Shown: in pieces, positions 3,142 through 34,843 of the stretch
Layout of the letters: each line of letters opens with the position of its first letter
How positions within the stretch are numbered: position 1 is the stretch's first letter
NCBI GenBank assembly: GCA_013334825.1
Contig: JAAXWR010000001.1
Location: 340,731 to 404,730 of the forward strand
DNA length: 64,000 nucleotides
Direction: 5' to 3'
Origin: Candidatus Yonathbacteria bacterium
GTDB lineage: Bacteria > Patescibacteriota > Minisyncoccia > Phycocordibacterales > JACNGX01
Notes under the pieces: generated by a model
Databases searched by the model: none
Seen by the model: only the letters and a program-made list of their open reading frames with translations
What the model was told of the DNA's origin: nothing
Made by a program: the position numbers and the translations under genes

Positions 3142-4044
3142 TTACTTTGCTTTTTTCGTCTTTTGCTCCTCAATGTCAGGAGCGCTTACCTTCTGCAGAG
3201 ATGTTTCCTGCGCAAGTTTCTCCCGCACAGCCTGGTTGAGATCGTTCTTGAGATTGATCTCACTGTCCAAGGGGTCAAGAGCGACAATCAGGTAAAAATC
3301 GCTCATTGATGCTGTCGTGATTGATCCACCTTTTGTCTGTGAGAGATTGGGGGCGAGACCGGCTGCCATTCCGATAGGGGGATTGATTCCCGTCAAAATG
3401 GTGTTCATTACTGTAGAAGCGGTAATGCCTTCAGCAATGCCCTTGTTTCCCATCGCGAATCCCGTCGCATCCTTTACGGAGCATGCGGAGAGTTTCAAAC
3501 CACGTAACTCAGTGCGGTCGCAAGCGATGTAGTTCAAGAGATCAACACGTATCGTTCCTGCGTCCACACGGCTACCCTTTGAGGGTTTGCCGTTAAAAAG
3601 AATGGAACTGACGATTTTTCCATGAACCGGATTTCCGGATTTATTCATGGATAAGGTCGTCTGTTTGCCACGCTTTTCTTTGGGGAACATGGCTTCAATC
3701 TGTTCCGCCGAATACGTGTTATACGTAATCTGCGTCAGCCCGCTTTTTCCTGTGGCGTTGTCGTGCTCTGACGGCATGAATTCGTCATGCGCCTCGACGA
3801 GCCGTGAACCGATTTTTGTGGCGAATGTACTTTTTTCACCGGTTGAAAAGAGACCAGGGACATCGGGAGATGATACGACAGGCATCATCGGGGTTATCTG
3901 CCCATTGGGGAAGACAAGACCGACAACAGCATTTGCCGAGGAAGCGGCCTCGGTACTTGCTGTCATGTCACCTGCGTGTACTGCGGAGGATCCAAAACAG
4001 AGGATAACTCCAGCGACAAAGGACGTAAAGATATTTTTTTTCAT
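3142..4044 (-). CDS. Secreted hypothetical protein
   Basis: Signal peptide MKKNIFTSFVAGVILCFGSSAVHA. GC content is elevated relative to the surroundings. Confidence 0.6.
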   Translation of the reverse strand: MKKNIFTSFVAGVILCFGSSAVHAGDMTASTEAASSANAVVGLVFPNGQITPMMPVVSSPDVPGLFSTGEKSTFATKIGSRLVEAHDEFMPSEHDNATGKSGLTQITYNTYSAEQIEAMFPKEKRGKQTTLSMNKSGNPVHGKIVSSILFNGKPSKGSRVDAGTIRVDLLNYIACDRTELRGLKLSACSVKDATGFAMGNKGIAEGITASTVMNTILTGINPPIGMAAGLAPNLSQTKGGSITTASMSDFYLIVALDPLDSEINLKNDLNQAVREKLAQETSLQKVSAPDIEEQKTKKAK

Positions 4045-4124
4045 CGTTTTTGATTTGATTTTTGTTCTATAAAAAACGAAGACCGGAGAAATCCGGTCTT
4101 CTTAAAACAACAATGGACCAGATG

Positions 4125-4538
4125 TCAGTTGCCGAGTTCGCCGATATCGTCGAGGATGTCGTCCAGGTTGGACGATAGTGCGGCAACAATGATACCACCG
4201 CCGAACGATGCTCCCGCAGCTTTGTAGTCGCTTACGAAGGCATTTCCGAGTGCCGAAGTGCAGATATCGACGGAAACAGGTGTTACATCCACCCGTCCGT
4301 GAACGCAATTGTTTGCCCCTGCGGAGACCATGTTGATGTTGGTCCCCATGGTACCGATGGCACCTTCAATACCCACACTTGACAGACCCATGATGCCGGT
4401 ATCAATCGAGACATGGGGTGTCGGCTGCGGGCATGACGGGCCGCTGTTACCACCTGCATATGCCGGTGCGTTAAAACTGACACCGAAGACGATTGCAAGG
4501 CCAACGATGGCCGATCTGAGAAAGGTTTTTTTCTGCAT
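4125..4538 (-). CDS. Small secreted Gly-rich hypothetical protein
   Basis: Signal peptide MQKKTFLRSAIVGLAIVFGVSFNAPAYA, then Gly/Ser-rich mature region with an acidic C-terminal tail. GC-rich. Confidence 0.55.
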   Translation of the reverse strand: MQKKTFLRSAIVGLAIVFGVSFNAPAYAGGNSGPSCPQPTPHVSIDTGIMGLSSVGIEGAIGTMGTNINMVSAGANNCVHGRVDVTPVSVDICTSALGNAFVSDYKAAGASFGGGIIVAALSSNLDDILDDIGELGN

Positions 4539-7524: not shown

Positions 7525-7563
7525 TAATGAGAAAAATATTATACCCTATTCTTTTAAGGAGAA

Positions 7564-7680
7564 GGCCTTTGACCTCCGCATTGTCCCGATGAATTGTGGT
7601 GGACCCTACCGGATTTGAATCCCGAGCTTCGTGGAAGCCCGAGGACAGGCCTTTGACCTCCGCATTGTCCCGATGAATTG
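7564..7680 (-). repeat. Tandem duplicated 3'-half fragments of tRNA-Ala(TGC)
   Basis: Reading the minus strand after the tRNA CCA end: CAATTCATCGGGAC + AATGCGGAGGTCA + a 34-nt insert + TTCAAATCCGGTAGGGTCCACCA. Then CAATTCATCGGGAC+AATGCGGAGGTCAAAGGCC occurs again. This is a direct read of the sequence. Confidence 0.85.
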
Positions 7681-7756
7681 TGGTGGACCCTACCGGATTT
7701 GAACCGGTGACCTCCGCATTGCAAATGCGGCGCTCTACCAACTAAGCTAAGGGCCC
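7681..7756 (-). tRNA. tRNA-Ala(TGC)
   Basis: GGGCCCTTAGCTTAGTTGGTAGAGCGCCGCATTTGCAATGCGGAGGTCACCGGTTCAAATCCGGTAGGGTCCACCA. G3:U70 pair, anticodon loop TTTGCAA, CCA encoded. Confidence 0.95.
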
Positions 7757-8026
7757 ACCACAATTCACCGAGGATTCTCGATTTCTTTTTGCTAAATACT
7801 CCTCAATCTTACTTCTACTCTTCCAAGATTTCAAGAGGCGCTCTTTTTTTATCGCCTCAGATCTCGTAGGTGATATTTCGTATGTTTCCAATATCCAGGG
7901 TTTGTATGCTTTGGTCGATGTTACCAAACCATCATTGTGTCGTTTCAATCGAATATCCATATTGAGACAACTTCCGATATAGTATCTATTATTTTTTAAC
8001 GAACGAAGAATGTATGTATAATACAT
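7742..8026 (-). CDS. GIY-YIG nuclease family protein (YhbQ/UPF0213-like)
   Basis: MYYTYILRSLKNNRYYIGSCLNMDIRLKRHN...KPWILETYE...EAIKKERLLKSW matches the YxYxL...YIG...R..H...E GIY-YIG pattern. The last about 5 codons overlap the 5' end of tRNA-Ala on the same strand. The ORF-track start at 8047 is a TTG extension. Confidence 0.75.
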   Translation of the reverse strand: MYYTYILRSLKNNRYYIGSCLNMDIRLKRHNDGLVTSTKAYKPWILETYEISPTRSEAIKKERLLKSWKSRSKIEEYLAKRNRESSVNCGGPLA

Positions 8027-8044
8027 AGCAAAAAGAAATCGGAA

Positions 8045-8110
8045 CAAATGCGGCGCTCTTTGCCTTGCCGAAGCTTAAGCGAAGGCAGGTACCAACTAAG
8101 CTAAGGACCC
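8045..8110 (-). pseudogene. Degenerate 5' fragment of a tRNA-Ala gene with a 31-nt hairpin insertion
   Basis: GGGTCCTTAGCTTAGTTGGTA-[CCTGCCTTCGCTTAAGCTTCGGCAAGGCAAA]-GAGCGCCGCATTTG matches tRNA-Ala positions 1-35 except for the insertion. It breaks in the anticodon loop. Confidence 0.7.
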
Positions 8111-8284: not shown

Positions 8285-8809
8285 TCAACCAGCAATAACA
8301 GGATTTTTTCTTCCTTTTTTCTTTTCAGGAAGAAACACCTGATACCGCACATTAGCGGTACCCGCTTTTACAATCCCGAGGCGTTTTGCTGCCTCAAGTG
8401 AAAGATCGAACTTCCTGTCGCCCACATAGGGACCACGGTCGTTGATCCTTACCCAAACGGATTTTCCGTTTATGGGGTTATACACGTAGACCCGTGTATT
8501 GAAGGGTAATTTTTTGTTCGCCGCGGTGAGCGCGTTCATGTTGAAACGCTCGCCGTTGGCAGTTTTTCTGCCATGGAATTTATCTGCATAATAAGAGACC
8601 TTTGCTGTACCAGCAGCATCAGGTTTCTTTTCTTTTGCAATGAGTACCGACGTATCCGCCGGCGTTGGTTTTTCATCCGCCATGGCAGTTTCTGTGAGTG
8701 CCGATGGGGAGATTTGTTTATTCTTCACTACCGAAGCGCCCGAATTGTCGGGTGCAAACTTTAGGATAAGGGCAATGAAGACCAAACAAACAAGAACTGT
8801 ATGTTTCAT
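8285..8809 (-). CDS. rlpA: RlpA-like septal ring lytic transglycosylase (double-psi beta-barrel)
   Basis: VSYYADKFHGRKTANGERF...NTRVYVYNPINGKSVWVRINDRGPYVGDRKFDLSLEAAKRLG is the classic RlpA DPBB signature. It has an N-terminal signal/anchor. Confidence 0.85.
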   Translation of the reverse strand: MKHTVLVCLVFIALILKFAPDNSGASVVKNKQISPSALTETAMADEKPTPADTSVLIAKEKKPDAAGTAKVSYYADKFHGRKTANGERFNMNALTAANKKLPFNTRVYVYNPINGKSVWVRINDRGPYVGDRKFDLSLEAAKRLGIVKAGTANVRYQVFLPEKKKGRKNPVIAG

Positions 8810-8894: not shown

Positions 8895-9005
8895 ATATTT
8901 CATCGATACCCATAGAGGGTATGCTCAGATGTTGTCATATAAGGGTTTTTTCGGATAATGAGGTGTTTTTTGAGATGTCTTTATGCTTTTATTATCCCCT
9001 TTTCA

Positions 9006-9032
9006 ACAAAAAAGCCCGTTAGGAACGGGCTT
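9006..9032 (-). terminator. Rho-independent terminator
   Basis: aagcccgtt-ccta-acgggctt followed by tttttt on the minus strand. The stop codon of the 9019 gene lies in the hairpin. Confidence 0.75.
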
Positions 9033-9561
9033 TGGCGTATTGTTCAATGATGTTGGCACATTCCTTGTCTGAACGGCCAACAATCTTTTTGAGAATTGTT
9101 TCTACGAGGAGAATGATCTTCTCTTTTTGCACATCTTTCTCTCGTAAAAGATAGTCTGTCCGCGGATATGAGAAATCTTTTGCGGACACTTGAGTGTCTA
9201 AACCAGAAAGAGTGTGGAGTTGTATATTCAATCCTCCGCGTGGCTGTACGAAGCGCAAGTGCTCTTTCGTATCAGCGAACGTGCACATGCATTCTGTAAT
9301 AATAGAAGAAAATGCGCGTGTTCTTGGATGGCACAAGCATCGCGATGCTTCTGCAAGAGCAGAAAGCATTACGTCAAAGGCCTCGGCATTTTTCTCCTTT
9401 GACGCGGAGCATGCGATGTCAATCCATGCGCGATACCGTTTTTCTTTCAGATGGAGTGAGGCAAAATACAGTACTTCTCCGAATATACCTAATATAAACA
9501 TGGCAGATTCTCCATTTTTCGTTGAGTTGATACATGCTGTAAAGAATAATAAGATTATCAA
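9019..9561 (-). CDS. Hypothetical protein
   Basis: ORF track, 180 aa. Confidence 0.45.
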   Translation of the reverse strand: MIILLFFTACINSTKNGESAMFILGIFGEVLYFASLHLKEKRYRAWIDIACSASKEKNAEAFDVMLSALAEASRCLCHPRTRAFSSIITECMCTFADTKEHLRFVQPRGGLNIQLHTLSGLDTQVSAKDFSYPRTDYLLREKDVQKEKIILLVETILKKIVGRSDKECANIIEQYAKARS

Positions 9562-9614
9562 TATATACTGTCAATATACGCGCATATTATAAAAGAGCGT
9601 ATTATACTGTACAT

Positions 9615-10100
9615 ATGAGCATTGAAACACAAGGTGCGCGTGATGATAAACATGAGAAATTTCATGCTTCTGATGAAGTATATCGTAAAGCAGTGTTAAA
9701 AATTGCGCAGATATTTGGTGAAAGAGATGTGCATGCTTTGGACGCACGTATTGATACTGCTCTTCTCCGTATGCCAGATGCGAAAGAACTAGATCGTTAT
9801 TCATTGGAACTTGATGCGTTTCGTCTTTTTGCTAAAGGAAATGGGAATGTACTTGATGAGATGTATCGCAAACGGTACATCAGTTTATTGTCCGAATACG
9901 TGTATGAAAAAGTAAAAGTAATACACCCGACAGATGATATGATTGGATATTATGGTGCTGTACGAGAAATGTTTCTTGATGATTCATTATTTACGTCATT
10001 TCCTGATGCGCCAACACTTTTAGGAGCATTGGAAGATAAAATATATTTTCGAGCAGATGCATATAGAAATGATAATGCTTCTGAGACTAATAAAGAATAA
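9615..10100 (+). CDS. Hypothetical protein
   Basis: ORF track, 161 aa. It is divergent from the 9019 gene. Confidence 0.45.
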   Translation: MSIETQGARDDKHEKFHASDEVYRKAVLKIAQIFGERDVHALDARIDTALLRMPDAKELDRYSLELDAFRLFAKGNGNVLDEMYRKRYISLLSEYVYEKVKVIHPTDDMIGYYGAVREMFLDDSLFTSFPDAPTLLGALEDKIYFRADAYRNDNASETNKE

Positions 10101-10211
10101 TAAAAAATAAAATACTATGTTTCTTGTTAATGTTTAAGATGAAGTATCAAAAATATACTTTCTGTTCAGCATAAAAATATCGTCTAGATAGCAGAGAAAC
10201 AAAAAGAAGGG

Positions 10212-10240
10212 ATTGACAAATGTTGTATTCTAGTGTAAGA
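10212..10240 (+). promoter_or_regulatory. Sigma70-like promoter with a long (about 230 nt) leader
   Basis: TTGACA, a 17-nt spacer, then TAAGAT. The next gene starts at 10471. Confidence 0.5.
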
Positions 10241-10470
10241 TACCCCCTAGTTTTCTGTGTCCTTTACAAATAGGATAGTCAGAAGCGAAGCGAGAGCGTG
10301 CATAAACGAATGTCCACAACGTTAGGATATTCCTTGCATCAAGTAGCTTCACGATGGCCGAGTATATATACATGTTGTGTATATTGCCGTAGCTGTCACA
10401 ACCCCAACCTAAACTAAAGAAAACATATATTATCTTATTTTTGAAAAAAATTTTTAAATTTTGATTTGAA

Positions 10471-11964
10471 ATGATGATGAAAAAAATTCTCTTCTTTTTG
10501 GCAATGCTCGCAGTCCTCTTTGCGGGGCCTGCCGAAGCCTTCAACAAAAAGGTATTCGTCAACGGGGAACCTGCTGTTGAGAACAGCATGCTCGGTACGA
10601 GTCAGGCTGTTTTCGAAAACCTGAAAAAGGGGGTTGCCGAGAATCCCGAAGGGGTCGTGAACGCCGTCGCCGATTTCCTCATCGCTGAGGAAGGATGCGC
10701 GGAAGGTGTCCGCGACATCATTCGCACCGAGCTCCCCAACATCCAGTGGGGTGAGCTTTCCGAAGCCAGTGGAGATCACATCAACATGGGCTTCAGAAAA
10801 AATGGCGGGTTTGCAAAAACCGGCGTCCTTGCAGTCAAAGGTGTGATTCCGGTCGGTATTCTTGAATTGAAAAACGTCCCCATGAAGGACGGTACGATGA
10901 TGAATGTCAAAGCGACCATGCCGGTCGCGTGCAGCAACCCTGATGCATCGAAGTCGCCCATACCGGTAGAGCTCCCCGTAGTTCCCCCGGTCATCGCGGT
11001 TGAAAAGACCCCTGCCATCGGTTTCGGTGTCGGACAGGCTTCAGCCGGTGTCTTCGAACACCAGGAGGCGTTCGTGCACGTGCCGATTGGCAACGACAGG
11101 AACTCCCTCCAGGGGTTCGATGCCGGCGTCCAGCGCTACACATCGCACGAACTGCTGCGTAGCTTCTCTACGCTGACCCATCAGGAACTCCGTCAGCGCG
11201 AAGCGACTCGCACCGTTTCCGTCCCCGTCGAAAAGACCGGATACAAGACCGTGACCAAGCATGTGGAAAAGAAGGTGGTCAAGCAGGTCCCGTACGAGGT
11301 CTGTGAGAAGGTCTGGGTGGCTTCCAAGGACAAGTGTGGCAAAGACACCGGTCACTGGGAGTACAAGAAGGTCACCAAGTATCGTGAGGAAATCGTGATC
11401 TGCACCTTTCCGGTACAGGTACAGGTTCCCTACACCTATACGGTGAACGAGCTCCAGACCGAAACATACATGGAGAACTATGTATACTCATGGGACGAAG
11501 AGGTCGAGAGTCGCTCGATTAAGTCGAGCGAGGTGTACGCACCATTTGTGCGCTACACCCACGCCTTCAACCTCGACAGGAAGAAGAACGTGCGCCTCGT
11601 GCCGTCTGCCTACGCCGCCTTCCCGGGACTCGTCGGTGACGATCTGTATGTCATCAACGGCCTCGAAAACCAGAAGGTGAACGTCGCCCTCGGACAGGAG
11701 TTGTCTTTCTACGTTAGCCTGACGGACAAGATGGCACTGGTACCAACCTGCGCGGTGCGTGAGTTCATGACCGCACAGGAAGGAACGCCCATGGCGCTCG
11801 AGCCCGGCCTGGCGGTCAGCGTTTTCCCCGCAAAAGGGTTGAACATCACCGGAAATGTCTCACACCAGACCATTTACGGTTTGTCGAAGACGAATGCTGT
11901 CGACGGCAGTAAGGACAACCGGGGCGGATGGCTCATCGGCGCAGGTCTCATGTACAACTTCTGA
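10471..11964 (+). CDS. Large secreted protein, possibly outer-membrane beta-barrel-like. It is compositionally foreign (GC-rich).
   Basis: Signal peptide MMMKKILFFLAMLAVLFAGPAEA. C-terminus ...GGWLIGAGLMYNF has alternating hydrophobic residues ending in Phe. GC is about 55-60% versus roughly 43% in the flanks. Confidence 0.7.
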   Translation: MMMKKILFFLAMLAVLFAGPAEAFNKKVFVNGEPAVENSMLGTSQAVFENLKKGVAENPEGVVNAVADFLIAEEGCAEGVRDIIRTELPNIQWGELSEASGDHINMGFRKNGGFAKTGVLAVKGVIPVGILELKNVPMKDGTMMNVKATMPVACSNPDASKSPIPVELPVVPPVIAVEKTPAIGFGVGQASAGVFEHQEAFVHVPIGNDRNSLQGFDAGVQRYTSHELLRSFSTLTHQELRQREATRTVSVPVEKTGYKTVTKHVEKKVVKQVPYEVCEKVWVASKDKCGKDTGHWEYKKVTKYREEIVICTFPVQVQVPYTYTVNELQTETYMENYVYSWDEEVESRSIKSSEVYAPFVRYTHAFNLDRKKNVRLVPSAYAAFPGLVGDDLYVINGLENQKVNVALGQELSFYVSLTDKMALVPTCAVREFMTAQEGTPMALEPGLAVSVFPAKGLNITGNVSHQTIYGLSKTNAVDGSKDNRGGWLIGAGLMYNF

Positions 11965-11996
11965 TCTTCCTTGTTTTTTTTTCAAACACTAACCGA

Positions 11997-12026
11997 CCCC
12001 GGCATTCGCCGGGGTTTTTATTTTTA
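11997..12026 (+). terminator. Rho-independent terminator
   Basis: ccccggc-attc-gccgggg followed by tttttattttt. Confidence 0.8.
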
Positions 12027-12034
12027 TAGTATAT

Positions 12035-12059
12035 AAAAAAAACCAGCGCTAGGCGCTGG
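12035..12059 (-). terminator. Rho-independent terminator
   Basis: ccagcgc-cta-gcgctgg with T7 on the minus strand. Confidence 0.65.
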
Positions 12060-12576
12060 CTGTTTGTTCCCCATAATTCTTGTGGGCAAAGAAGAATGTT
12101 GAATCTGTAGGAGACGTCTCATGCAGATTCAGTTGGGCGATGATTTCTGCAAGTCCATCACAGAAATCATTGATTTTCTTTTCCCCAAGCATCTCTTTGG
12201 GAAGAGATGCTTGAATTGTTTTTGGGAGATTGTGTATAAAAACAGGTTTGTTCCCCGCAAAAAGAGAACGTTCCCCTGTAAAGACCGCATGAATCATGCA
12301 GTCAATCAGCCCAAATTGATCGATTTCTGTTCCAGTAAAAGTAAAAGAAATTTTTTCATTAAGACAGTGAAAAAATTTCTTTCCAATAACAGAAATACCC
12401 CTCCGAATATAATTGTTCGGAAACTGCGCGTGATGGGTCGCGCAGTTTTCAAAAAAGCGTATCAACACCCTTCGTGAGAGGACAATCCTCTCAAAAGATG
12501 GATACGCAACTTCGTCGGATTTGATTTCCGTGAGTCGTGCCAAAAGGACATCAAGGCGAGTTTTTTTCTTTTTCAT
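12049..12576 (-). CDS. Hypothetical protein
   Basis: ORF track, 175 aa. Confidence 0.45.
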   Translation of the reverse strand: MKKKKTRLDVLLARLTEIKSDEVAYPSFERIVLSRRVLIRFFENCATHHAQFPNNYIRRGISVIGKKFFHCLNEKISFTFTGTEIDQFGLIDCMIHAVFTGERSLFAGNKPVFIHNLPKTIQASLPKEMLGEKKINDFCDGLAEIIAQLNLHETSPTDSTFFFAHKNYGEQTASA

Positions 12577-28461: not shown

Positions 28462-30396
28462 TTATATTTCACGACAAAGCGGTGATGAAAGTGCCGTAAG
28501 CAAATCATCAATGGCAATTGATGCGACATTGACCACTTTATCCGCTCCGCCATAATAAATAAACATCTTCCCATCATGAACAGTAGACCCACAAGGAAAG
28601 ACGACATTAGAAACAATACCTTCTAATTCATAGGATTCTTCCGGCTCAAAAATGGGATACCATGTGCGTGCGCGTATAATGGTTGGATCTTTTTTATCAA
28701 GAAGCACGGCACCAAGGCGATATACACCATCATGAGAAATACCATGATAGAGAAAAATCCATCCTTTTTCGGTCTTGTGGGGAGGAGCGACACCCCCAAC
28801 CTTCCGGCAGTCCCACCATCCCTTTCGCGGCTGTATCCATCGATATTCTTCAAGCCAGTCATCGTGCCCAAAAGAAAGACTTTCCCTCCACGCCAAATCA
28901 ATATCTAACCCACTTCGATGTACAACTAAATACTTACCTCCAATTTTTTCTGGAAAAACAAAAGCGTCTTTGTCATCAATACCAGGAGGAGAAATGAGGA
29001 TGGGTTCACTCCATGCTTGCCAATTGCGTGCGAGGAAATCTTTTTTCGATATTGATGTGAGTGCGATACGTGGTACAGACACACCGTCATACGCCGTGTA
29101 GTTCATATATATGGTGTTTCCAATCATTGAAAGACGTGGGTCTTCACATCCGGAGTTCCCCCCAGGGTTCCTCTTTTGTTCAAATGAAGCGCGCGGGGTA
29201 TAGATTGGTTCTGGAAGACGTTCCATGATATGAATACCATCTGTTGTTGTTGCATATCCCATAACCGATGTATTGTCTTCAGACATCGCTCGATATACCA
29301 AATGTGTCGTATCATCGATACGCAGCGCGGCGGGATTAAATGTTGCTTTTGACTCCCATGAGTGACTTAAAACAGGCTCAATGACTGGACGCGTACTTCG
29401 TCGTTTGAATACAATACGTTTTTCTTTTTTTGTAAGAATACTTTCAATAATATCATCAATGGATGCAGATGCGACAGCACAGACAGTATCAGCAGCGCCA
29501 TAATAGATGTCTACACGTTTTCCCTGTACCAATGCACCTGAAGGAAAGACAATATTGGGTACCATGCCGTATCGTTCATACGATTCTGAAGGAGACATGA
29601 GGGGAAACTCTGTCCGACCGATAATCTTGCGTGGGTCATTTATATCAAGAAGAATTGCTTCAACAGTAAAGAATGCATCCCCAATAAAATAATTACGGAT
29701 ATGCGAATAAAACACGAGCCATCCCTTATCTGTCTTCACTGGCGGAGCACCGACTTCTACATGGTCTTCATGGATATGGTTGGGGCGTTTAAACGCAAGG
29801 GTGTGTTTTTCTTTTTCTGCATACCATGTATGCCAATATGCTTCCGACAACATTTCATCTTCATTGTTAAACGAAGCAATACCAATAAACGAAGGACGAC
29901 GGTCAGTATCAACAGTAAGAAGCGCCCACAGTTTACCATTGATGCGTTCAGGAAAAAGGGTCATGCCTTTTGCATTAAAGGGTGTGACCAGATGTTTTTC
30001 ACGCACATGTTCAAGATTGTCAGAAATAGCAACGGCGGCTTTGATACCATCTGCACGAAATGGATATTCAGAAAGCGCCGTGTAAAAAATGTAATATTTC
30101 CCGTCGATATAGGTAACGCGCGGATCCTCACATCCAAAACGCTCCCATGGTTCTTCTGGAGTGATGAAGCGTTTTCTGTCAGAAAAATGATACCCGTCTG
30201 CACTTCGTGCAATACCAATTGTAGAAACATTGATATCGCTGTTCACGGGAAGTTGATAGTGTGGAAGCGACAGGGCGCGATACAACAAGAATGTCTCCTT
30301 ACCACACTTTATGGGGCAACCGTTGAATACAGCTTGTGCTTCCCACGAATGCTTTGCATCAGGAGAAAGAATGGGATTGTGTTCGGAACGTATCAT
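28462..30396 (-). CDS. Tandem double GH130 glycoside phosphorylase (beta-mannoside phosphorylase-like)
   Basis: Two repeats of the GH130 pattern NPIL..W..FN...YRA...IG.A.S.DG..F...P...E..GCEDPR....Y..Y.A, one per protein half (644 aa). Confidence 0.85.
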   Translation of the reverse strand: MIRSEHNPILSPDAKHSWEAQAVFNGCPIKCGKETFLLYRALSLPHYQLPVNSDINVSTIGIARSADGYHFSDRKRFITPEEPWERFGCEDPRVTYIDGKYYIFYTALSEYPFRADGIKAAVAISDNLEHVREKHLVTPFNAKGMTLFPERINGKLWALLTVDTDRRPSFIGIASFNNEDEMLSEAYWHTWYAEKEKHTLAFKRPNHIHEDHVEVGAPPVKTDKGWLVFYSHIRNYFIGDAFFTVEAILLDINDPRKIIGRTEFPLMSPSESYERYGMVPNIVFPSGALVQGKRVDIYYGAADTVCAVASASIDDIIESILTKKEKRIVFKRRSTRPVIEPVLSHSWESKATFNPAALRIDDTTHLVYRAMSEDNTSVMGYATTTDGIHIMERLPEPIYTPRASFEQKRNPGGNSGCEDPRLSMIGNTIYMNYTAYDGVSVPRIALTSISKKDFLARNWQAWSEPILISPPGIDDKDAFVFPEKIGGKYLVVHRSGLDIDLAWRESLSFGHDDWLEEYRWIQPRKGWWDCRKVGGVAPPHKTEKGWIFLYHGISHDGVYRLGAVLLDKKDPTIIRARTWYPIFEPEESYELEGIVSNVVFPCGSTVHDGKMFIYYGGADKVVNVASIAIDDLLTALSSPLCREI

Positions 30397-30444
30397 GAAT
30401 GAAATATAAAAAACGATAAACTAAAAAACGAAATGTCATACATA

Positions 30445-31917
30445 TTACATGGTTTTGCGTGCACGAATTTTTTTCTTTATCACAGTTTTCTTTTCAATCT
30501 TTGGGGTGGCATCCTTTCGTAAGTCATTCATAAATGATGCAAAATCAGCAGAGGCAACGCATACATAATTATCGGATGCTCCGTAATATACAAACAACGT
30601 ATCATCTTTCACAACCACCCCTGAGACATATACAATACCACCTTTCGCGCCGTTGTATTCATATTCTTCAGTTGGCTCAAGTACTGGACCAGAAGAACGA
30701 TGCAGGACTTTCGTCGGATCAAGTAAATCAAGAAGCATCACGCCCACTTTGTATTTCCATGGTTCATCGTGCGTAACCGCGTGATAAAAAACGAGCCATC
30801 CTTCATCTGTACGAATAGGTGGAGCCGCAGGTCCACGCACCCATGTGTCCCAAACACCTAAACGTTTTTCCATACGATATTTACTGGGAATATATATTTC
30901 ATCAGGAAACACAAGTGAATCGACATATTCAATGAGAATACCCGTATTGATACTGTGGAGAATTGCATACTTCCCTTTTATTTTCTCAGGAAAAATCATC
31001 CAATTTTTATGATATTCATACGGATGCGACATAATGGATGGTGTACTCCAATTCCATCTACGTTTTCGCACATCATCGATATGTATTGATGATATTGCCA
31101 TTTTAAGTCCCCCATCACACGCAGTGTACGTAAGGTAGAGATGATTGTCTTCGGGGATATACACAACACGAGGATCTTCTGCACCCGCCCATCCTCCGCC
31201 AGAAGCAAAAGCGACTGGATTCATGCGAAACGGTTGTAATGTCGCATGTTCAAATACAGGAACGTCAGAACGTTCATCAATTGTATATCCATCAAGAGAA
31301 ACCGCATGCCCCACACGTGATTGTCCATCAGCACCCATGGCGCGATAAAACAGATGTACTTTTCCATCAATAAGAACAGAACCAGGATTGAATGTCTGCC
31401 ATGATTCCCATACGTGTTCTTCACGAGGAAGAATAATAGGATTTGACTCATGTCGTTCAAGTCGATTGAGTAGAGGGTTTTTCTCTGGTTGCGTGGGTTT
31501 TTTTCTTGTAAGAACCTTTCGAGCAAGAGGCACATTCTTTGTATCTGTCTTTTTTTGTTTTGATAATTGCAGTACTGATTTTTTCGGAGAAATTGTTTTG
31601 GTATAAGGAACGGATGTTCGTAAGGTAAGGACGTCACGCGCAGGCGTCTTTTTTTCAGAAAGCTTCTTTTTAAGAGAAACCTGTGGAGGTGTTTTCTTTT
31701 TGCGCGGAACAATCGGAACAAGAATGCGTCGTTGGCGTAAAGATTTCATCTCTTTCGATTGCACATAAGGTGTCATATTCTTTTTTACGTTATCGCGTTC
31801 ATTTTCTTTCAATCCACGTTGTGTATTTGTAGAAAGAAACTGGGTTGTCTTTTTCCTACTCCCCCGTGAAGCGGGAGAAGAAGATGAAGAACCAGTTGCG
31901 CGGGGCGCAGATGCCAT
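30445..31917 (-). CDS. GH130 glycoside phosphorylase with an approximately 170-aa K/R/S/T/P-rich N-terminal low-complexity extension
   Basis: C-terminal 320 aa match GH130 (NPIILPREEHVWESWQTFNPG...GAEDPRVVYI...). The N-terminus is basic and disordered. Confidence 0.8.
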   Translation of the reverse strand: MASAPRATGSSSSSPASRGSRKKTTQFLSTNTQRGLKENERDNVKKNMTPYVQSKEMKSLRQRRILVPIVPRKKKTPPQVSLKKKLSEKKTPARDVLTLRTSVPYTKTISPKKSVLQLSKQKKTDTKNVPLARKVLTRKKPTQPEKNPLLNRLERHESNPIILPREEHVWESWQTFNPGSVLIDGKVHLFYRAMGADGQSRVGHAVSLDGYTIDERSDVPVFEHATLQPFRMNPVAFASGGGWAGAEDPRVVYIPEDNHLYLTYTACDGGLKMAISSIHIDDVRKRRWNWSTPSIMSHPYEYHKNWMIFPEKIKGKYAILHSINTGILIEYVDSLVFPDEIYIPSKYRMEKRLGVWDTWVRGPAAPPIRTDEGWLVFYHAVTHDEPWKYKVGVMLLDLLDPTKVLHRSSGPVLEPTEEYEYNGAKGGIVYVSGVVVKDDTLFVYYGASDNYVCVASADFASFMNDLRKDATPKIEKKTVIKKKIRARKTM

Positions 31918-32046: not shown

Positions 32047-32120
32047 CGGGCTATCGTACAGTGGTAGTATGCATCCATGGGGTGGATGTGGCAGCGGTTC
32101 GATTCCGCTTAGCCCGACCA
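32047..32120 (+). tRNA. tRNA-Pro(GGG)
   Basis: CGGGCTATCGTACAGTGGTAGTATGCATCCATGGGGTGGATGTGGCAGCGGTTCGATTCCGCTTAGCCCGACCA. Anticodon loop ATGGGGT with G37. Confidence 0.85.
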
Positions 32121-32187
32121 TTCGACTTCGTTCGGCTTCAAGAAATGAAGCCTCACTCCGCTCATGGTCTTCGACCTTTTTTACCAG

Positions 32188-32502
32188 ATGAATAGGGTTT
32201 CTCTTGAAAAGCCGAATGGAGTCGAATGCCCTGAGCCTGTCGAAGGGCTTTACTATGTTTACTTACTTCTTTGCTGTGACGAAAGCTTATACTGTGGGTC
32301 AACAAAAAATCTCAAGAACCGCACAAAAGAACATAATTCTGGCGAAGGAGCGGCGTGGACTAAAAGACGCCGCCCGGTAAAATTAATATATTACGAAACG
32401 TATGATTCACTTATTTCAGCTCGTCGTCGTGAAAGACAAATAAAAGGATGGACAATTCAAAAAAAATTTAATCTAATAAACGGTATTTGGCAGAAATTAT
32501 AA
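32188..32502 (+). CDS. GIY-YIG nuclease family protein (YhbQ/UPF0213-like), second copy
   Basis: GLYYVYLLLCCDESLYCGSTKNLKNRTKEHNSGEGAAWTKRRRPVKLIYYETYDSLISARRRERQIKGW. The start may be 32164 or 32188. It lies 45-70 nt downstream of tRNA-Pro(GGG). Confidence 0.75.
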   Translation: MNRVSLEKPNGVECPEPVEGLYYVYLLLCCDESLYCGSTKNLKNRTKEHNSGEGAAWTKRRRPVKLIYYETYDSLISARRRERQIKGWTIQKKFNLINGIWQKL

Positions 32503-34039: not shown

Positions 34040-34843
34040 TCATGTTCTTTTTTCAATCAATACCTTAATTTCAGACATCGCATCCTCCGTCGCTTTCTCC
34101 CCTATCGCAATCTTTTCTGCTCCATCAACAAAATTGAAAAAATCAAATACATCACTTGTATGCGTATCGATATCAATAACAATATCAGCATCTTCAACAT
34201 TTTGAAGCGCGAGGTGATACCGTAAAATATTCAACGAGTCATATGCGACGGTATACCATGCCGGCTTTTTCTTTTCATTGTAATAATGTTTGTCCAAATT
34301 CACCGCAATGACAATATCAGCGCCCATTTGACGGACGGTCTCGACAGGAACAGGTGCGGACAATCCACCATCAGCATAGACATGTCCATCAATTTCTTCT
34401 GACTTAAATGCAACAGGCACAGAAATACTCGCTCGTATAGCAGTCGCCATATCACCAGAATTGAATGCATGAAATACCCCTGTCTGCATATCAGTCGCAA
34501 TAGCAGAAAATGGGATAGGACAGTCTTCAAATGTATTTGCTTTCAACTCATGACGGATAAACTCTTTGACTTTATTACCTCCGATAAGTCCTCGTTTTAA
34601 TTTTGGATCCACCATGGCAAACATCATACGCCAGTCTGCATCCCATGAAATCTTTTCAATATCCTCTATAGAACGTCCCGACGCATACAGCCCCCCAATC
34701 ATGGCACCGATGCTTGAACCGGCAATCATATCAATCGGAATATTATGCGCGTGAAGTGCTTTGATAACACCAATATGCGCAAGGCCTTTTGACCCTCCGC
34801 TTCCTAATGCGAGTCCTACTTTCTGCCGTGTACGTGTATGCAT
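34040..34843 (-). CDS. Patatin-like phospholipase
   Basis: GLALGSGGSKGLAHIGV (GxGxxG), GSSIG (GxSxG) and DGG motifs. Confidence 0.88.
   Translation of the reverse strand: MHTRTRQKVGLALGSGGSKGLAHIGVIKALHAHNIPIDMIAGSSIGAMIGGLYASGRSIEDIEKISWDADWRMMFAMVDPKLKRGLIGGNKVKEFIRHELKANTFEDCPIPFSAIATDMQTGVFHAFNSGDMATAIRASISVPVAFKSEEIDGHVYADGGLSAPVPVETVRQMGADIVIAVNLDKHYYNEKKKPAWYTVAYDSLNILRYHLALQNVEDADIVIDIDTHTSDVFDFFNFVDGAEKIAIGEKATEDAMSEIKVLIEKRT

What the first reader, a model, noticed from the sequence alone, without database searches (positions are those of the whole stretch)
10212..12026. GC-rich secreted-protein island with an outer-membrane-like C-terminus in an otherwise AT-moderate genome
The 497-aa ORF has a clean signal peptide. 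It ends in ...GGWLIGAGLMYNF, an alternating-hydrophobic pattern with a terminal Phe characteristic of beta-barrel OMP C-termini. It has markedly higher GC than all flanking genes. It sits between a consensus promoter with a 230-nt leader and a strong terminator, which is the architecture of a self-contained acquired cassette. The two secreted-protein genes at 3142-4538 are also GC-enriched. Together these look like horizontally acquired surface or secreted factors, possibly host- or partner-interaction proteins.
Basis: partly seen in the sequence, partly recalled or inferred. Interest (0 to 1): 0.5.

Follow-up and report, generated by a model that had tools for sequence, protein, structure and literature searches.

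The report
Codon-atypical secreted protein gene in CPR bacterium
A near-orphan gene for a secreted, probably cell-surface protein in an ultra-small (CPR) bacterium is strikingly GC-rich at silent codon positions, but it lies at an ancestral genomic position in an organism with no outer membrane, so it is probably neither a freshly acquired island nor an outer-membrane barrel.

Summary
ORF 10471-11964 (497 aa) has a Sec signal peptide and ends in GGWLIGAGLMYNF. It has a TTGACA-17-TAAGAT promoter, a 223-nt leader and a strong terminator. GC3 is 0.71 against 0.37 +/- 0.06 for native genes (z about +5.8), while GC1 and GC2 are normal.

The host is a Candidatus Yonathbacteria MAG (CPR/Patescibacteria), a clade described as monoderm with an S-layer. 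No OMP or autotransporter family matched. The terminal Phe is absent from the closest homologue. Two AlphaFold runs failed (pLDDT 34).

Only three family members exist among about 15 billion proteins. The closest one sits next to the same divergent DPBB/RlpA-like gene and shares promoter and leader blocks. Its synonymous sites are saturated against the target, yet it is also GC3-enriched (0.54 vs 0.41). This argues against a recent acquired cassette.

Two other secreted ORFans (3142-4538) deviate in the same codon direction (r = 0.76). Enolase and ATP synthase genes do not (r = -0.03).

Best reading: a resident, lineage-specific, probably abundant Sec-secreted surface protein with a maintained, gene-class-specific codon bias. 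Allele replacement from a GC-richer CPR remains a serious rival.

The parts
10213..10241 (+). Sigma-70-type promoter: TTGACA, 17 nt, TAAGAT. The -35 context TTGACAAAT is shared by all three family loci.
   Evidence: 10 of 12 matches. Alignment of the three upstream regions. The 9-mer itself is not rare in the window (2 found, 1.9 expected).
10248..10470 (+). Roughly 223-nt AT-rich leader (5' UTR, inferred). It has conserved blocks shared with the P0002 locus, and no conserved peptide frame.
   Evidence: Searches show collinear blocks. MFE is -51.2 kcal/mol, z = -3.05. No Rfam match at E <= 5. Leader GC is 0.345.
10308..10332 (+). Candidate conserved leader hairpin with loop ...ACAACGTTA.... 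Three of its pairs change on both sides between the window and L001/L090.
   Evidence: Only two sequences, so this is suggestive only.
10471..10539 (+). Sec signal peptide, residues 1-23, with predicted cleavage AEA|FN.
   Evidence: Read directly from the sequence. Both homologues also have N-terminal signal peptides.
10540..10950 (+). Conserved N-terminal domain (about residues 24-160). This is the best-conserved part versus P0002 (dN 0.30 here vs 0.86 in the C-terminal part). It may be an anchoring or interaction module.
   Evidence: Alignments. dN by region. L090 tblastn gives 59% identity over residues 3-158. One weak RCC1/BLIP-II blade-like similarity at residues 87-144 (E 0.0025) is not convincing.
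10951..11502 (+). Pro-rich linker (PIPVELPVVPPVIAVEKTP) followed by a variable Lys/Glu-rich, beta-prone middle region with large indels between homologues.
11503..11961 (+). C-terminal module conserved in all three members (motifs MT.QEGTP, GLN.T, W487). It ends in an amphipathic strand, GGWLIGAGLMYNF.
   Evidence: AF2 on this module alone gave pLDDT 34.
11995..12026 (+). Intrinsic terminator: GACCCCGGC-ATTC-GCCGGGGTT followed by a T-run.
8285..8809 (-). Secreted DPBB/RlpA-like lytic-transglycosylase-type gene. It is the syntenic divergent neighbour of the family in both AT-moderate genomes.
   Evidence: Pfam PF03330, E 1e-24. The L090 counterpart is 62% identical over 95 aa by tblastn (48% over 159 aa by blastp) and single copy in the window. 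61 nt of its upstream DNA are 77% identical.
8899..10192 (.). AT-rich 1.3-kb insert relative to the L090 locus. It carries two ORFs with no family match (9019-9501 minus strand; 9615-10100 plus strand, GC3 0.21). It separates the DPBB upstream region from the target promoter.
   Evidence: collinear blastn blocks either side. (no family hits). (GC3).
3142..4538 (-). Two further signal-peptide ORFan genes (300 aa and 137 aa) that share the target's codon deviation.
   Evidence: (r = 0.76). (GC3 0.525 and 0.58). (the 300-aa protein has no homologue beyond itself).

Best explanation
The gene is a resident, lineage-restricted gene of a CPR (Patescibacteria) bacterium. It encodes a protein of about 52 kDa that is exported by Sec, cleaved after AEA, and has no membrane-spanning helix.

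The protein has three parts: a conserved N-terminal domain of about 140 aa, a Pro-rich linker with a fast-evolving beta-prone middle, and a conserved C-terminal module. I infer that it is an abundant cell-surface protein, either S-layer-like or a host-contact protein. The conserved N-terminal domain would tether it to the wall, and the variable part would be exposed.

It is made as a monocistronic unit. Transcription starts from a near-consensus promoter, passes through a conserved leader of about 220 nt that probably stabilises the mRNA, and ends at a strong terminator.

Its GC3 excess (C-ending codons, near-exclusive CAG) is a gene-class-specific synonymous bias. The bias has been maintained over long evolutionary time, is shared with its positional orthologue, and is shared with two other secreted ORFans of the same genome. 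It is not the unameliorated signature of a recent island.

Status of the steps:
- Shown: ORF, signal peptide, composition, synteny, saturation of synonymous sites, narrow distribution.
- Inferred: high expression, surface location, tethering role of the N-terminal domain, leader function, and the selective cause of the bias.
For: - Host and family. P0001 is named Candidatus Yonathbacteria. iPGM's best relatives are Paceibacteria and other CPR, at no more than 54% identity. Only three members exist in 1.84 billion representatives. The third is in a Candidatus Moranbacteria MAG from the same biofilm.
- Positional orthology. L090 overlaps L001 identically and places a divergent DPBB gene upstream of P0002, as in the window. 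The DPBB-upstream, promoter and leader blocks are collinear.
- Ancient split. pS = 0.77 (saturated). Identical codons at conserved residues number 35, against 28.4 expected by chance.
- GC3 excess in both AT-moderate genomes. Target 0.711 vs 0.37. P0002 0.536 vs 0.408 for its DPBB neighbour, with intergenic GC 0.34. CAG:CAA is 16:0, 17:1 and 16:1 in the three members.
- Sharp boundaries. The GC step coincides with the CDS. Leader GC is 0.345.
- Shared deviation with two other secreted ORFans: r = 0.76.
- Expression-type architecture at all three loci. TTGACAAAT -35 context, leaders of roughly 190-250 nt, structured in two of three (z = -3.05 and -4.77), and a strong terminator.
- Protein properties. 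Signal peptide in all three. pI 5.3-6.1. No transmembrane helix.
- Context. CPR cells imaged by cryo-TEM have an S-layer and no outer membrane. CPR genomes are rich in surface proteins and lytic transglycosylases.
- From my own recollection, not checked here: S-layer genes typically combine strong promoters, long stabilising 5' UTRs and biased codon usage (Boot and Pouwels 1996; Sara and Sleytr 2000).
Against: - The bias is not that of the native genes expected to be well expressed. Codon deviations of enolase, atpA, atpD and iPGM do not correlate with the target's (r = -0.03). Those genes prefer CAA 36:7 and A-ending Gln, Lys and Glu codons. atpE has GC3 0.29.
- No ribosomal protein genes lie in the window, so the best reference set is missing.
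- The target's RSCU resembles the homologue in the GC-rich Moranbacteria contig (r = 0.80). That fits a GC-rich source.
- The host baseline for P0002 is a single 157-codon gene plus 377 nt of spacer.
- CPR are expected to have weak translational selection (general knowledge).
- No known wall-anchoring domain (SLH, CWB2, LysM and the like) was detected.
- The target has 6 Cys, and S-layer proteins usually have few.
- There are no expression data, and the fold is unknown.
- A survey of 30 other CPR loci found no comparable GC3-outlier secreted gene, so this is not shown to be a general CPR rule.
Confidence: 0.42

Rival explanations
1. Horizontal acquisition or allelic (xenologous) replacement. 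The ancestral gene at the DPBB locus was replaced, wholly or in its 3' two-thirds, by an allele from a GC-richer CPR relative. Recombination would have used the conserved promoter, leader or N-terminal region. The other two secreted ORFans would come from a similar donor pool. On this reading GC3 0.71 is an unameliorated donor signature.
For: - GC3 z = +5.8 with normal GC1 and GC2.
- Both C- and G-ending codons are enriched, including Gln, Lys and Glu, opposite to the native housekeeping trend.
- RSCU correlates at r = 0.80 with the Moranbacteria homologue. That contig has GC3 about 0.72 in rplI and pyrG and comes from the same biofilm.
- The dinucleotide signature is in the top 4% of window segments.
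- GC3 rises 5' to 3' along the gene, from 0.6 to 0.8.
- ORFan status of all three atypical genes.
- From my own recollection: surface-protein cassettes are known to be exchanged in other bacteria.
Against: - No homologue above 38% identity exists anywhere in about 15 billion proteins.
- The position is syntenic, with conserved AT-rich leader blocks.
- The orthologue in a second AT-moderate genome shows the same direction of bias even though synonymous sites are saturated. That would require repeated replacements.
- No mobility genes, flanking repeats, or phage or plasmid matches.
- The GC step stops exactly at the CDS.
Confidence: 0.3
2. Secreted host-directed effector rather than a structural envelope protein. 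Examples would be a beta-rich adhesin or a pore-forming or lytic accessory protein. It would act at the episymbiont-host interface together with the adjacent secreted DPBB/RlpA-like lytic transglycosylase.
For: - Conserved divergent pairing with a signal-peptide DPBB gene in two genomes.
- CPR lytic transglycosylases and phospholipases have been proposed to breach host envelopes. A patatin-like phospholipase lies at 34040-34843.
- Fast-evolving middle region and very narrow distribution, as expected for host-specific factors.
- Beta-prone, amphipathic C-terminal strands.
Against: - No similarity to any toxin, adhesin or pore-former family.
- The expression architecture fits a bulk structural product at least as well.
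- The pairing may reflect shared cell-wall function rather than host attack.
- The fold is unknown.
Confidence: 0.15
3. One reading: a genuine outer-membrane-type beta-barrel or autotransporter whose C-terminal ...Y-N-F acts as a BAM beta-signal.
For: - The C-terminus fits the beta-signal pattern (G at -6, aromatic at -3, F at -1). That strict pattern was found in 0 of 345 long ORFs from other CPR loci.
- P0003 also ends in F.
- The last roughly 150 residues can be read as about 8 amphipathic strands.
- AF2 assigns mostly strands there, but at pLDDT about 34.
Against: - The host clade is described as monoderm, having lost the outer membrane, porins and tethers. Cryo-TEM shows no outer membrane.
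- No OM-biogenesis gene was found among the window or flank genes scanned.
- No OMP, autotransporter or Omp85-substrate family hit.
- The closest homologue ends LPLFSL, and both homologues have Pro in the last strand.
- The Lys/Glu-rich middle is not membrane-like.
- The loose motif occurs in 2.6% of CPR ORFs by chance.
Confidence: 0.05

Closest known systems
S-layer and major cell-surface protein genes of monoderm bacteria (for example Lactobacillus slpA, Bacillaceae sbs genes)
   Same: Sec signal peptide. Monocistronic unit with a near-consensus promoter, a long leader and a strong terminator. Weakly acidic product of 50-57 kDa. A conserved terminal module plus a rapidly diverging remainder. 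Strong lineage specificity and gene-specific codon bias. The host clade is known to carry an S-layer.
   Different: No SLH, CWB2 or other known anchor domain. 6 Cys in the target. No evidence of lattice formation or abundance. The codon bias does not follow the genome's other presumably well-expressed genes.
BAM-dependent outer-membrane beta-barrel proteins and autotransporters (C-terminal beta-signal)
   Same: Signal peptide. Beta-prone sequence. A C-terminal alternating hydrophobic strand ending Y-x-F in the window copy.
   Different: Monoderm host clade. The terminal aromatic is not conserved in the closest homologue. No family hit. A charged, non-membrane-like middle region. No barrel model obtained.
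Compositionally atypical genomic islands (horizontally acquired ORFans)
   Same: GC3 and codon usage far from the host. ORFan status. A self-contained transcription unit.
   Different: Syntenic with a distant relative. Sharp CDS-limited GC step with a host-like AT-rich leader. No mobility genes or att-like repeats at its borders. No donor homologue. The orthologue shares the bias despite saturated synonymous divergence.
mRNA-stabilising 5' leaders such as the E. coli ompA 5' UTR (own recollection)
   Same: A long leader with 5'-proximal and internal hairpins ahead of an abundant envelope-protein gene. Conserved blocks despite otherwise unalignable intergenic DNA.
   Different: No sequence or Rfam similarity. 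The L090 leader is not more stable than shuffles (z = +0.45). Function is untested.

Membership tests
BAM-substrate outer-membrane beta-barrel / autotransporter | Host has an outer membrane and Omp85/BamA machinery | not testable with these tools
   Only 64 kb plus about 9 kb of the MAG could be read, and no OM-biogenesis gene was seen in it. The literature classes CPR as monoderm and without an outer membrane.
BAM-substrate outer-membrane beta-barrel / autotransporter | Sequence membership in a known OMP or autotransporter family | tested here: not met
   No Pfam or NCBIfam hit even at E <= 1-10, for any of the three members. The PDB profile search gave only a weak RCC1-like match.
BAM-substrate outer-membrane beta-barrel / autotransporter | Conserved C-terminal beta-signal with a terminal aromatic residue | tested here: inconclusive
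   The window copy ends MYNF and P0003 ends VPIF, but the closest homologue P0002 ends LPLFSL. G at -6 occurs only in the window copy.
BAM-substrate outer-membrane beta-barrel / autotransporter | Closed transmembrane beta-barrel fold | tested here: inconclusive
   AF2 on the full length and on the C-terminal 158 aa gave pLDDT 33.7 and 34.3. The models are unusable, so no fold search was run.
S-layer / major surface protein of monoderms | Secretion signal and absence of a membrane anchor | tested here: met
   Signal peptide in all three members. No hydrophobic segment with a 19-residue KD mean above 1.5 after it.
S-layer / major surface protein of monoderms | Known cell-wall anchoring domain (SLH, CWB2, and the like) | tested here: not met
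   No Pfam or NCBIfam domain. Witwinowski et al. also report that SLH/CsaB was lost in CPR.
S-layer / major surface protein of monoderms | Very high expression and a stable mRNA | not testable with these tools
   Only sequence proxies are available: promoter 10 of 12, 223-nt structured leader, strong terminator, codon bias. No transcript or protein data.
S-layer / major surface protein of monoderms | Self-assembly into a 2-D lattice on the cell | not testable with these tools
   Requires microscopy or biochemistry.
Recently acquired genomic island | Atypical composition relative to the host | tested here: met
   GC3 z = +5.8. RSCU r = -0.11 to the host. Dinucleotide distance in the top 4%.
Recently acquired genomic island | Absent from the syntenic site in relatives, or present with mobility signatures | tested here: not met
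   The homologue occupies the same DPBB-adjacent site in L090/L001. No integrase, att repeats, or phage or plasmid similarity.
Recently acquired genomic island | Close homologue in a plausible donor lineage | tested here: not met
   The best non-self homologue is 33-38% identical. Only three family members exist in about 15 billion proteins.

The most novel reading that the evidence does not exclude
The protein is a symbiont-made beta-barrel that is secreted by the monoderm CPR cell and inserts into the outer membrane of its Gram-negative host. It would use an OMP-like C-terminal beta-signal to exploit the host's BAM machinery and create a nutrient conduit at the contact site. CPR cells without an outer membrane have been imaged attached to diderm hosts, and the C-terminal strand of the window copy fits the beta-signal pattern. 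Nothing here shows a barrel, and the motif is not conserved in the closest homologue.
Probability: 0.03. Interest if true: 0.85.

Novelty: new member of a known kind. Interest (0 to 1): 0.35.

Why it matters
CPR/Patescibacteria are seen by cryo-EM to carry S-layers and to depend on surface contact with hosts. To my knowledge, and in the papers I could search, no CPR S-layer or major envelope protein has been identified by sequence.

If this reading is right, a gene-specific and evolutionarily maintained GC3/C-ending codon bias, combined with a strong promoter, a long leader and a strong terminator, could serve as a cheap genomic handle. It could pick out the abundant surface proteins of uncultivated CPR lineages, which homology searches cannot annotate.

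There is also a methodological lesson. A sharp GC/GC3 anomaly in an ORFan is not enough to call a horizontally acquired island. Here synteny and saturated synonymous divergence point the other way.

If the rival (allele replacement from GC-richer CPR) is right instead, the locus would be an example of surface-antigen cassette exchange within the CPR.

Tried and rejected
- Family scans. Pfam, NCBIfam, PHROGs and PADLOC on the target, its homologues and its four flanking ORFs gave nothing.
- PDB profile search. Only a marginal single-blade RCC1/BLIP-II-like similarity at residues 87-144 (E 0.0025, per-stretch E about 0.9). I do not rely on it.
- AlphaFold2. With the 3-sequence alignment, on the full length and on the C-terminal module, pLDDT was 34 in both. 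I did not run fold searches on these models because matches would be meaningless.
- Searches for more relatives. Genome contigs with the family profile gave no relatives. Genome contigs with iPGM, used to find close relatives for synteny, gave a best hit of only 54% identity, so no fine-scale comparison was possible. Viral contigs, phages and plasmids gave nothing.
- Extending the window by 10 kb at each end to find ribosomal protein genes gave only glycosyltransferases and housekeeping genes. A scan of small ORFs found atpE, atpC and atpH but no ribosomal proteins.
- DGR-type or paralogous repeats of the gene in the window: none. Internal protein repeats: none.
- Rfam on the leader: no match. 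A conserved leader peptide is rejected because the conserved blocks are in different frames in the two loci.
- A survey of 30 other CPR loci for GC3-outlier secreted genes found none comparable.
- Homologue searches for the 300-aa secreted ORFan and for the downstream neighbour (12049-12576) returned only the query itself.
- Absence of a Shine-Dalgarno motif is not special to this gene. Only 7 of 44 genes have one.
Full report
**1. Observation**

The ORF is at 10471-11964 on the + strand and encodes 497 aa. Its N-terminus, MMMKKILFFLAMLAVLFAGPAEA|FNKK, is a textbook Sec signal. It has a basic n-region, a 14-residue hydrophobic core and an A-x-A cleavage site, with no lipobox cysteine. No other hydrophobic segment reaches a transmembrane-helix score. 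The protein ends ...GGWLIGAGLMYNF.

The compositional anomaly is real and large:
- 200-nt windows read 0.50-0.605 GC inside the CDS and 0.28-0.41 upstream.
- GC1 (0.580) and GC2 (0.380) are ordinary, but GC3 is 0.711.
- For 46 other ORFs GC3 is 0.37 +/- 0.058 with a maximum of 0.507, so z = +5.8.

The transcription signals are also present. A TTGACA-17-TAAGAT promoter match lies at 10213-10241. A 9-bp, 7-GC hairpin with a T-run lies at 11995-12016. Together these imply a leader of about 223 nt with GC 0.345.

The two signal-peptide ORFs at 3142-4044 and 4125-4538 have GC3 0.525 and 0.58. An independent assembly of the same run reproduces the gene order.

**2. Organism and family**

The protein is identical to a hypothetical protein of a Candidatus Yonathbacteria MAG on a 450-kb contig. 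The neighbouring iPGM has its best relatives in Paceibacteria and other CPR, at no more than 54% identity. This is therefore a poorly sampled CPR lineage. The MAG comes from a biofilm on carbon-fibre composites, where CPR made up 30-43% of abundance.

No Pfam, NCBIfam, PHROGs or PADLOC model matches the protein. An exhaustive HMM search of 1.84 billion cluster representatives found only three members:
- the target itself;
- P0002 (546 aa, 33-38% identical, JGI metagenomes);
- P0003 (541 aa, 21% identical), from a Candidatus Moranbacteria MAG in the same biofilm.

All three have signal peptides. The N-terminal domain of about 140 residues is the best-conserved part between the target and P0002 (59% identity over residues 3-158 by tblastn; dN 0.30). 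The middle is riddled with indels. A C-terminal module (MT.QEGTP, GLN.T, a Trp about 10 residues from the end) is shared by all three. Mature proteins are 52-57 kDa with pI 5.3-6.1.

**3. Is it an outer-membrane barrel?**

The window copy's C-terminus does fit the beta-signal pattern (G at -6, aromatic at -3, Phe at -1). That strict pattern was absent from 345 long ORFs taken from other CPR loci. The loose pattern occurs in 2.6% of them.

Several points count against the barrel reading:
- The closest homologue ends LPLFSL, and both homologues carry a proline in the last strand.
- No OMP or autotransporter family is hit.
- The Lys/Glu-rich middle is not membrane-like.
- The host clade is described as having lost the outer membrane, its porins and its tethers.
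- Cryo-TEM of CPR cells shows an S-layer and no outer membrane.

Two AlphaFold2 runs, on the full length and on the C-terminal 158 aa, gave pLDDT of about 34. The fold is therefore undetermined. I rate the OMP reading at about 5%.

**4. Is it an acquired cassette?**

Taken alone, codon usage looks foreign.
- The target's RSCU correlates at -0.11 with the window background. It correlates at -0.01 with enolase, atpA, atpD and iPGM, and at 0.80 with P0003. The P0003 contig has GC3 of about 0.72 in rplI and pyrG.
- C-ending codons dominate: the C fraction is 0.76 at two-fold Y codons and 0.45 at four-fold sites. G-ending Gln, Lys and Glu codons are also enriched (CAG 16 of 16). That is opposite to the native housekeeping trend.

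A metagenome scan changed the picture. L090 overlaps L001 identically over 656 nt and extends the P0002 locus upstream. A divergent DPBB/RlpA-like gene lies there, just as DPBB (8285-8809) lies upstream of the target. The two DPBB proteins are 62% identical over the 95-aa domain, and the gene is single-copy in the window. Sixty-one nucleotides of DPBB-upstream DNA are 77% identical. The target's promoter and leader blocks follow collinearly.

The only structural difference is a 1.3-kb AT-rich insert in the window (8899-10192) carrying two ORFs with no family match. So the gene sits at an ancestral position.

Synonymous sites between the two orthologues are saturated. pS is 0.77, and identical codons at conserved residues number 35 against 28.4 expected by chance. 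Any signature from a shared ancestral acquisition should therefore have ameliorated. Yet P0002 is also GC3-enriched (0.536 vs 0.408 for its DPBB neighbour, spacer GC 0.34) and uses CAG 17 of 18 times.

Further points against recent acquisition:
- no mobility genes or bordering repeats;
- no phage, plasmid or viral similarity;
- no donor-like homologue;
- a GC step confined to the CDS.

The simple "recently acquired self-contained cassette" is therefore not supported. Repeated allele replacement from GC-richer CPR relatives remains possible, and I give it about 30%.

**5. What maintains the bias?**

Codon-by-codon deviations of the target from the background correlate strongly with those of the two other secreted ORFans (r = 0.76, p = 5e-12). 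They do not correlate with those of the glycolytic and ATP-synthase genes (r = -0.03). atpE has GC3 0.29.

The bias therefore marks a class of secreted, lineage-specific genes. It is not a general feature of highly expressed genes as far as this window can show. The window holds no ribosomal protein genes.

Candidate causes are selection for translation or mRNA stability in extremely abundant secreted products, GC-biased gene conversion in frequently recombining surface genes, or a common foreign source. I cannot separate these with the data available.

**6. Expression architecture**

- All three loci have a TTGACAAAT -35 context and leaders of roughly 190-250 nt.
- The window leader (z = -3.05) and the Moranbacteria leader (z = -4.77) are more structured than shuffles. 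The L090 leader is not (z = +0.45).
- A hairpin at 10308-10332 keeps pairing through three double changes between the window and L001/L090. With only two sequences this is no more than a hint.
- There is no Rfam match. The conserved blocks are in different reading frames, so a leader peptide is unlikely.
- Most genes in the window lack a Shine-Dalgarno motif (7 of 44), so its absence here is ordinary.

**7. Best explanation**

I read this as a resident, lineage-specific, probably abundant Sec-secreted surface protein. In this model the conserved N-terminal domain tethers it to the wall, a Pro-rich linker follows, and a variable exposed region ends in a conserved C-terminal module. It is transcribed as a strong monocistronic unit with a stabilising leader.

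The conserved pairing with a secreted DPBB lytic-transglycosylase-type gene fits an envelope or host-interface role. So does the glycosyltransferase cluster just beyond the left end of the window. CPR genomes are noted for surface proteins and lytic transglycosylases.

Confidence in the whole package is about 0.42. Confidence in the parts:
- secretion, about 0.9;
- residency at an ancestral locus, about 0.7;
- not an OMP, about 0.9;
- abundant or S-layer-like, about 0.35-0.4.

**8. Novelty and interest**

The protein family is undescribed and nearly orphan, but its kind (a secreted surface protein of a monoderm) is familiar. The unusual aspect is a very strong, CDS-limited GC3 excess at a syntenic locus, shared by other secreted ORFans. 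This is worth a follow-up with the full MAG and expression data. By itself it is a moderate curiosity, so I score interest at 0.35.

Noticed in passing
window 7563-8110 (minus strand): tRNA-Ala(tgc) at 7681-7756 is surrounded by partial copies of itself. There is an exact 57-nt direct repeat (7563-7619 and 7647-7703) covering its 3' part and downstream DNA. A copy of its 5' half lies at 8045-8110, interrupted by about 30 nt. A GIY-YIG nuclease ORF (7742-8047; Pfam E 5e-15) sits between the 5'-half copy and the intact tRNA. This looks like a mobile GIY-YIG element or integration scar at a tRNA gene. Short-read Logan assemblies break at this repeat.
   Followed up: partly
window 32164-32502 (+), next to tRNA-Pro 32047-32120: A second small ORF with a GIY-YIG-like sequence (YYVYLLLC...GSTKNL..R..EHN) lies directly beside another tRNA gene. 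This suggests the same kind of element recurs at tRNA loci. It was not scanned against Pfam.
   Followed up: no
window 8899-10192: A 1.3-kb AT-rich segment is absent from the corresponding spacer of the related locus L090. It carries two ORFs with no family match (9019-9501 minus strand; 9615-10100 plus strand, GC3 only 0.21). This AT-rich segment, not the GC-rich gene, is the inserted DNA at this locus.
   Followed up: partly
window 3142-4044 and 4125-4538 (minus strand): Two adjacent signal-peptide genes with no Pfam or NCBIfam match; a homologue search was run only for the 300-aa protein and returned only itself. GC3 is 0.525 and 0.58. Their codon deviations parallel the target's (r = 0.76). 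They have their own TTGACA promoter and follow a small membrane-protein ORF with a strong terminator.
   Followed up: partly
window 10308-10332; L090 about 750-775: A leader hairpin with the conserved loop ...AAACGTTAGG... and three compensatory pair changes between two loci whose proteins are only 38% identical. It may be an undescribed cis-acting RNA element of this gene family. It has no Rfam match.
   Followed up: partly
whole window: Only 7 of 44 genes have a Shine-Dalgarno-like motif within 25 nt of the start. Many starts are preceded by AT-rich or TATAAT-like sequence, which suggests SD-independent or leaderless initiation is the norm in this genome.
   Followed up: no
L003 1255-1548 (Moranbacteria locus of P0003): The homologue in the GC-rich Moranbacteria contig has a very strongly structured leader of about 250 nt (MFE -86 kcal/mol, z = -4.8) with several GC-rich hairpins. 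It ends in ACATTACATTAC/ATAGATAGATAC short repeats just before the start codon.
   Followed up: no
window 28462-31917 and left flank (L087 6673-16652): Two tandem GH130 (mannoside phosphorylase) genes lie next to a phosphomannomutase-like gene. A cluster of GT4/GT2 glycosyltransferases with a DUF2206 membrane protein lies just beyond the window's left end. These are probably cell-surface glycan or mannoside metabolism and could supply the wall polymer to which surface proteins attach.
   Followed up: no
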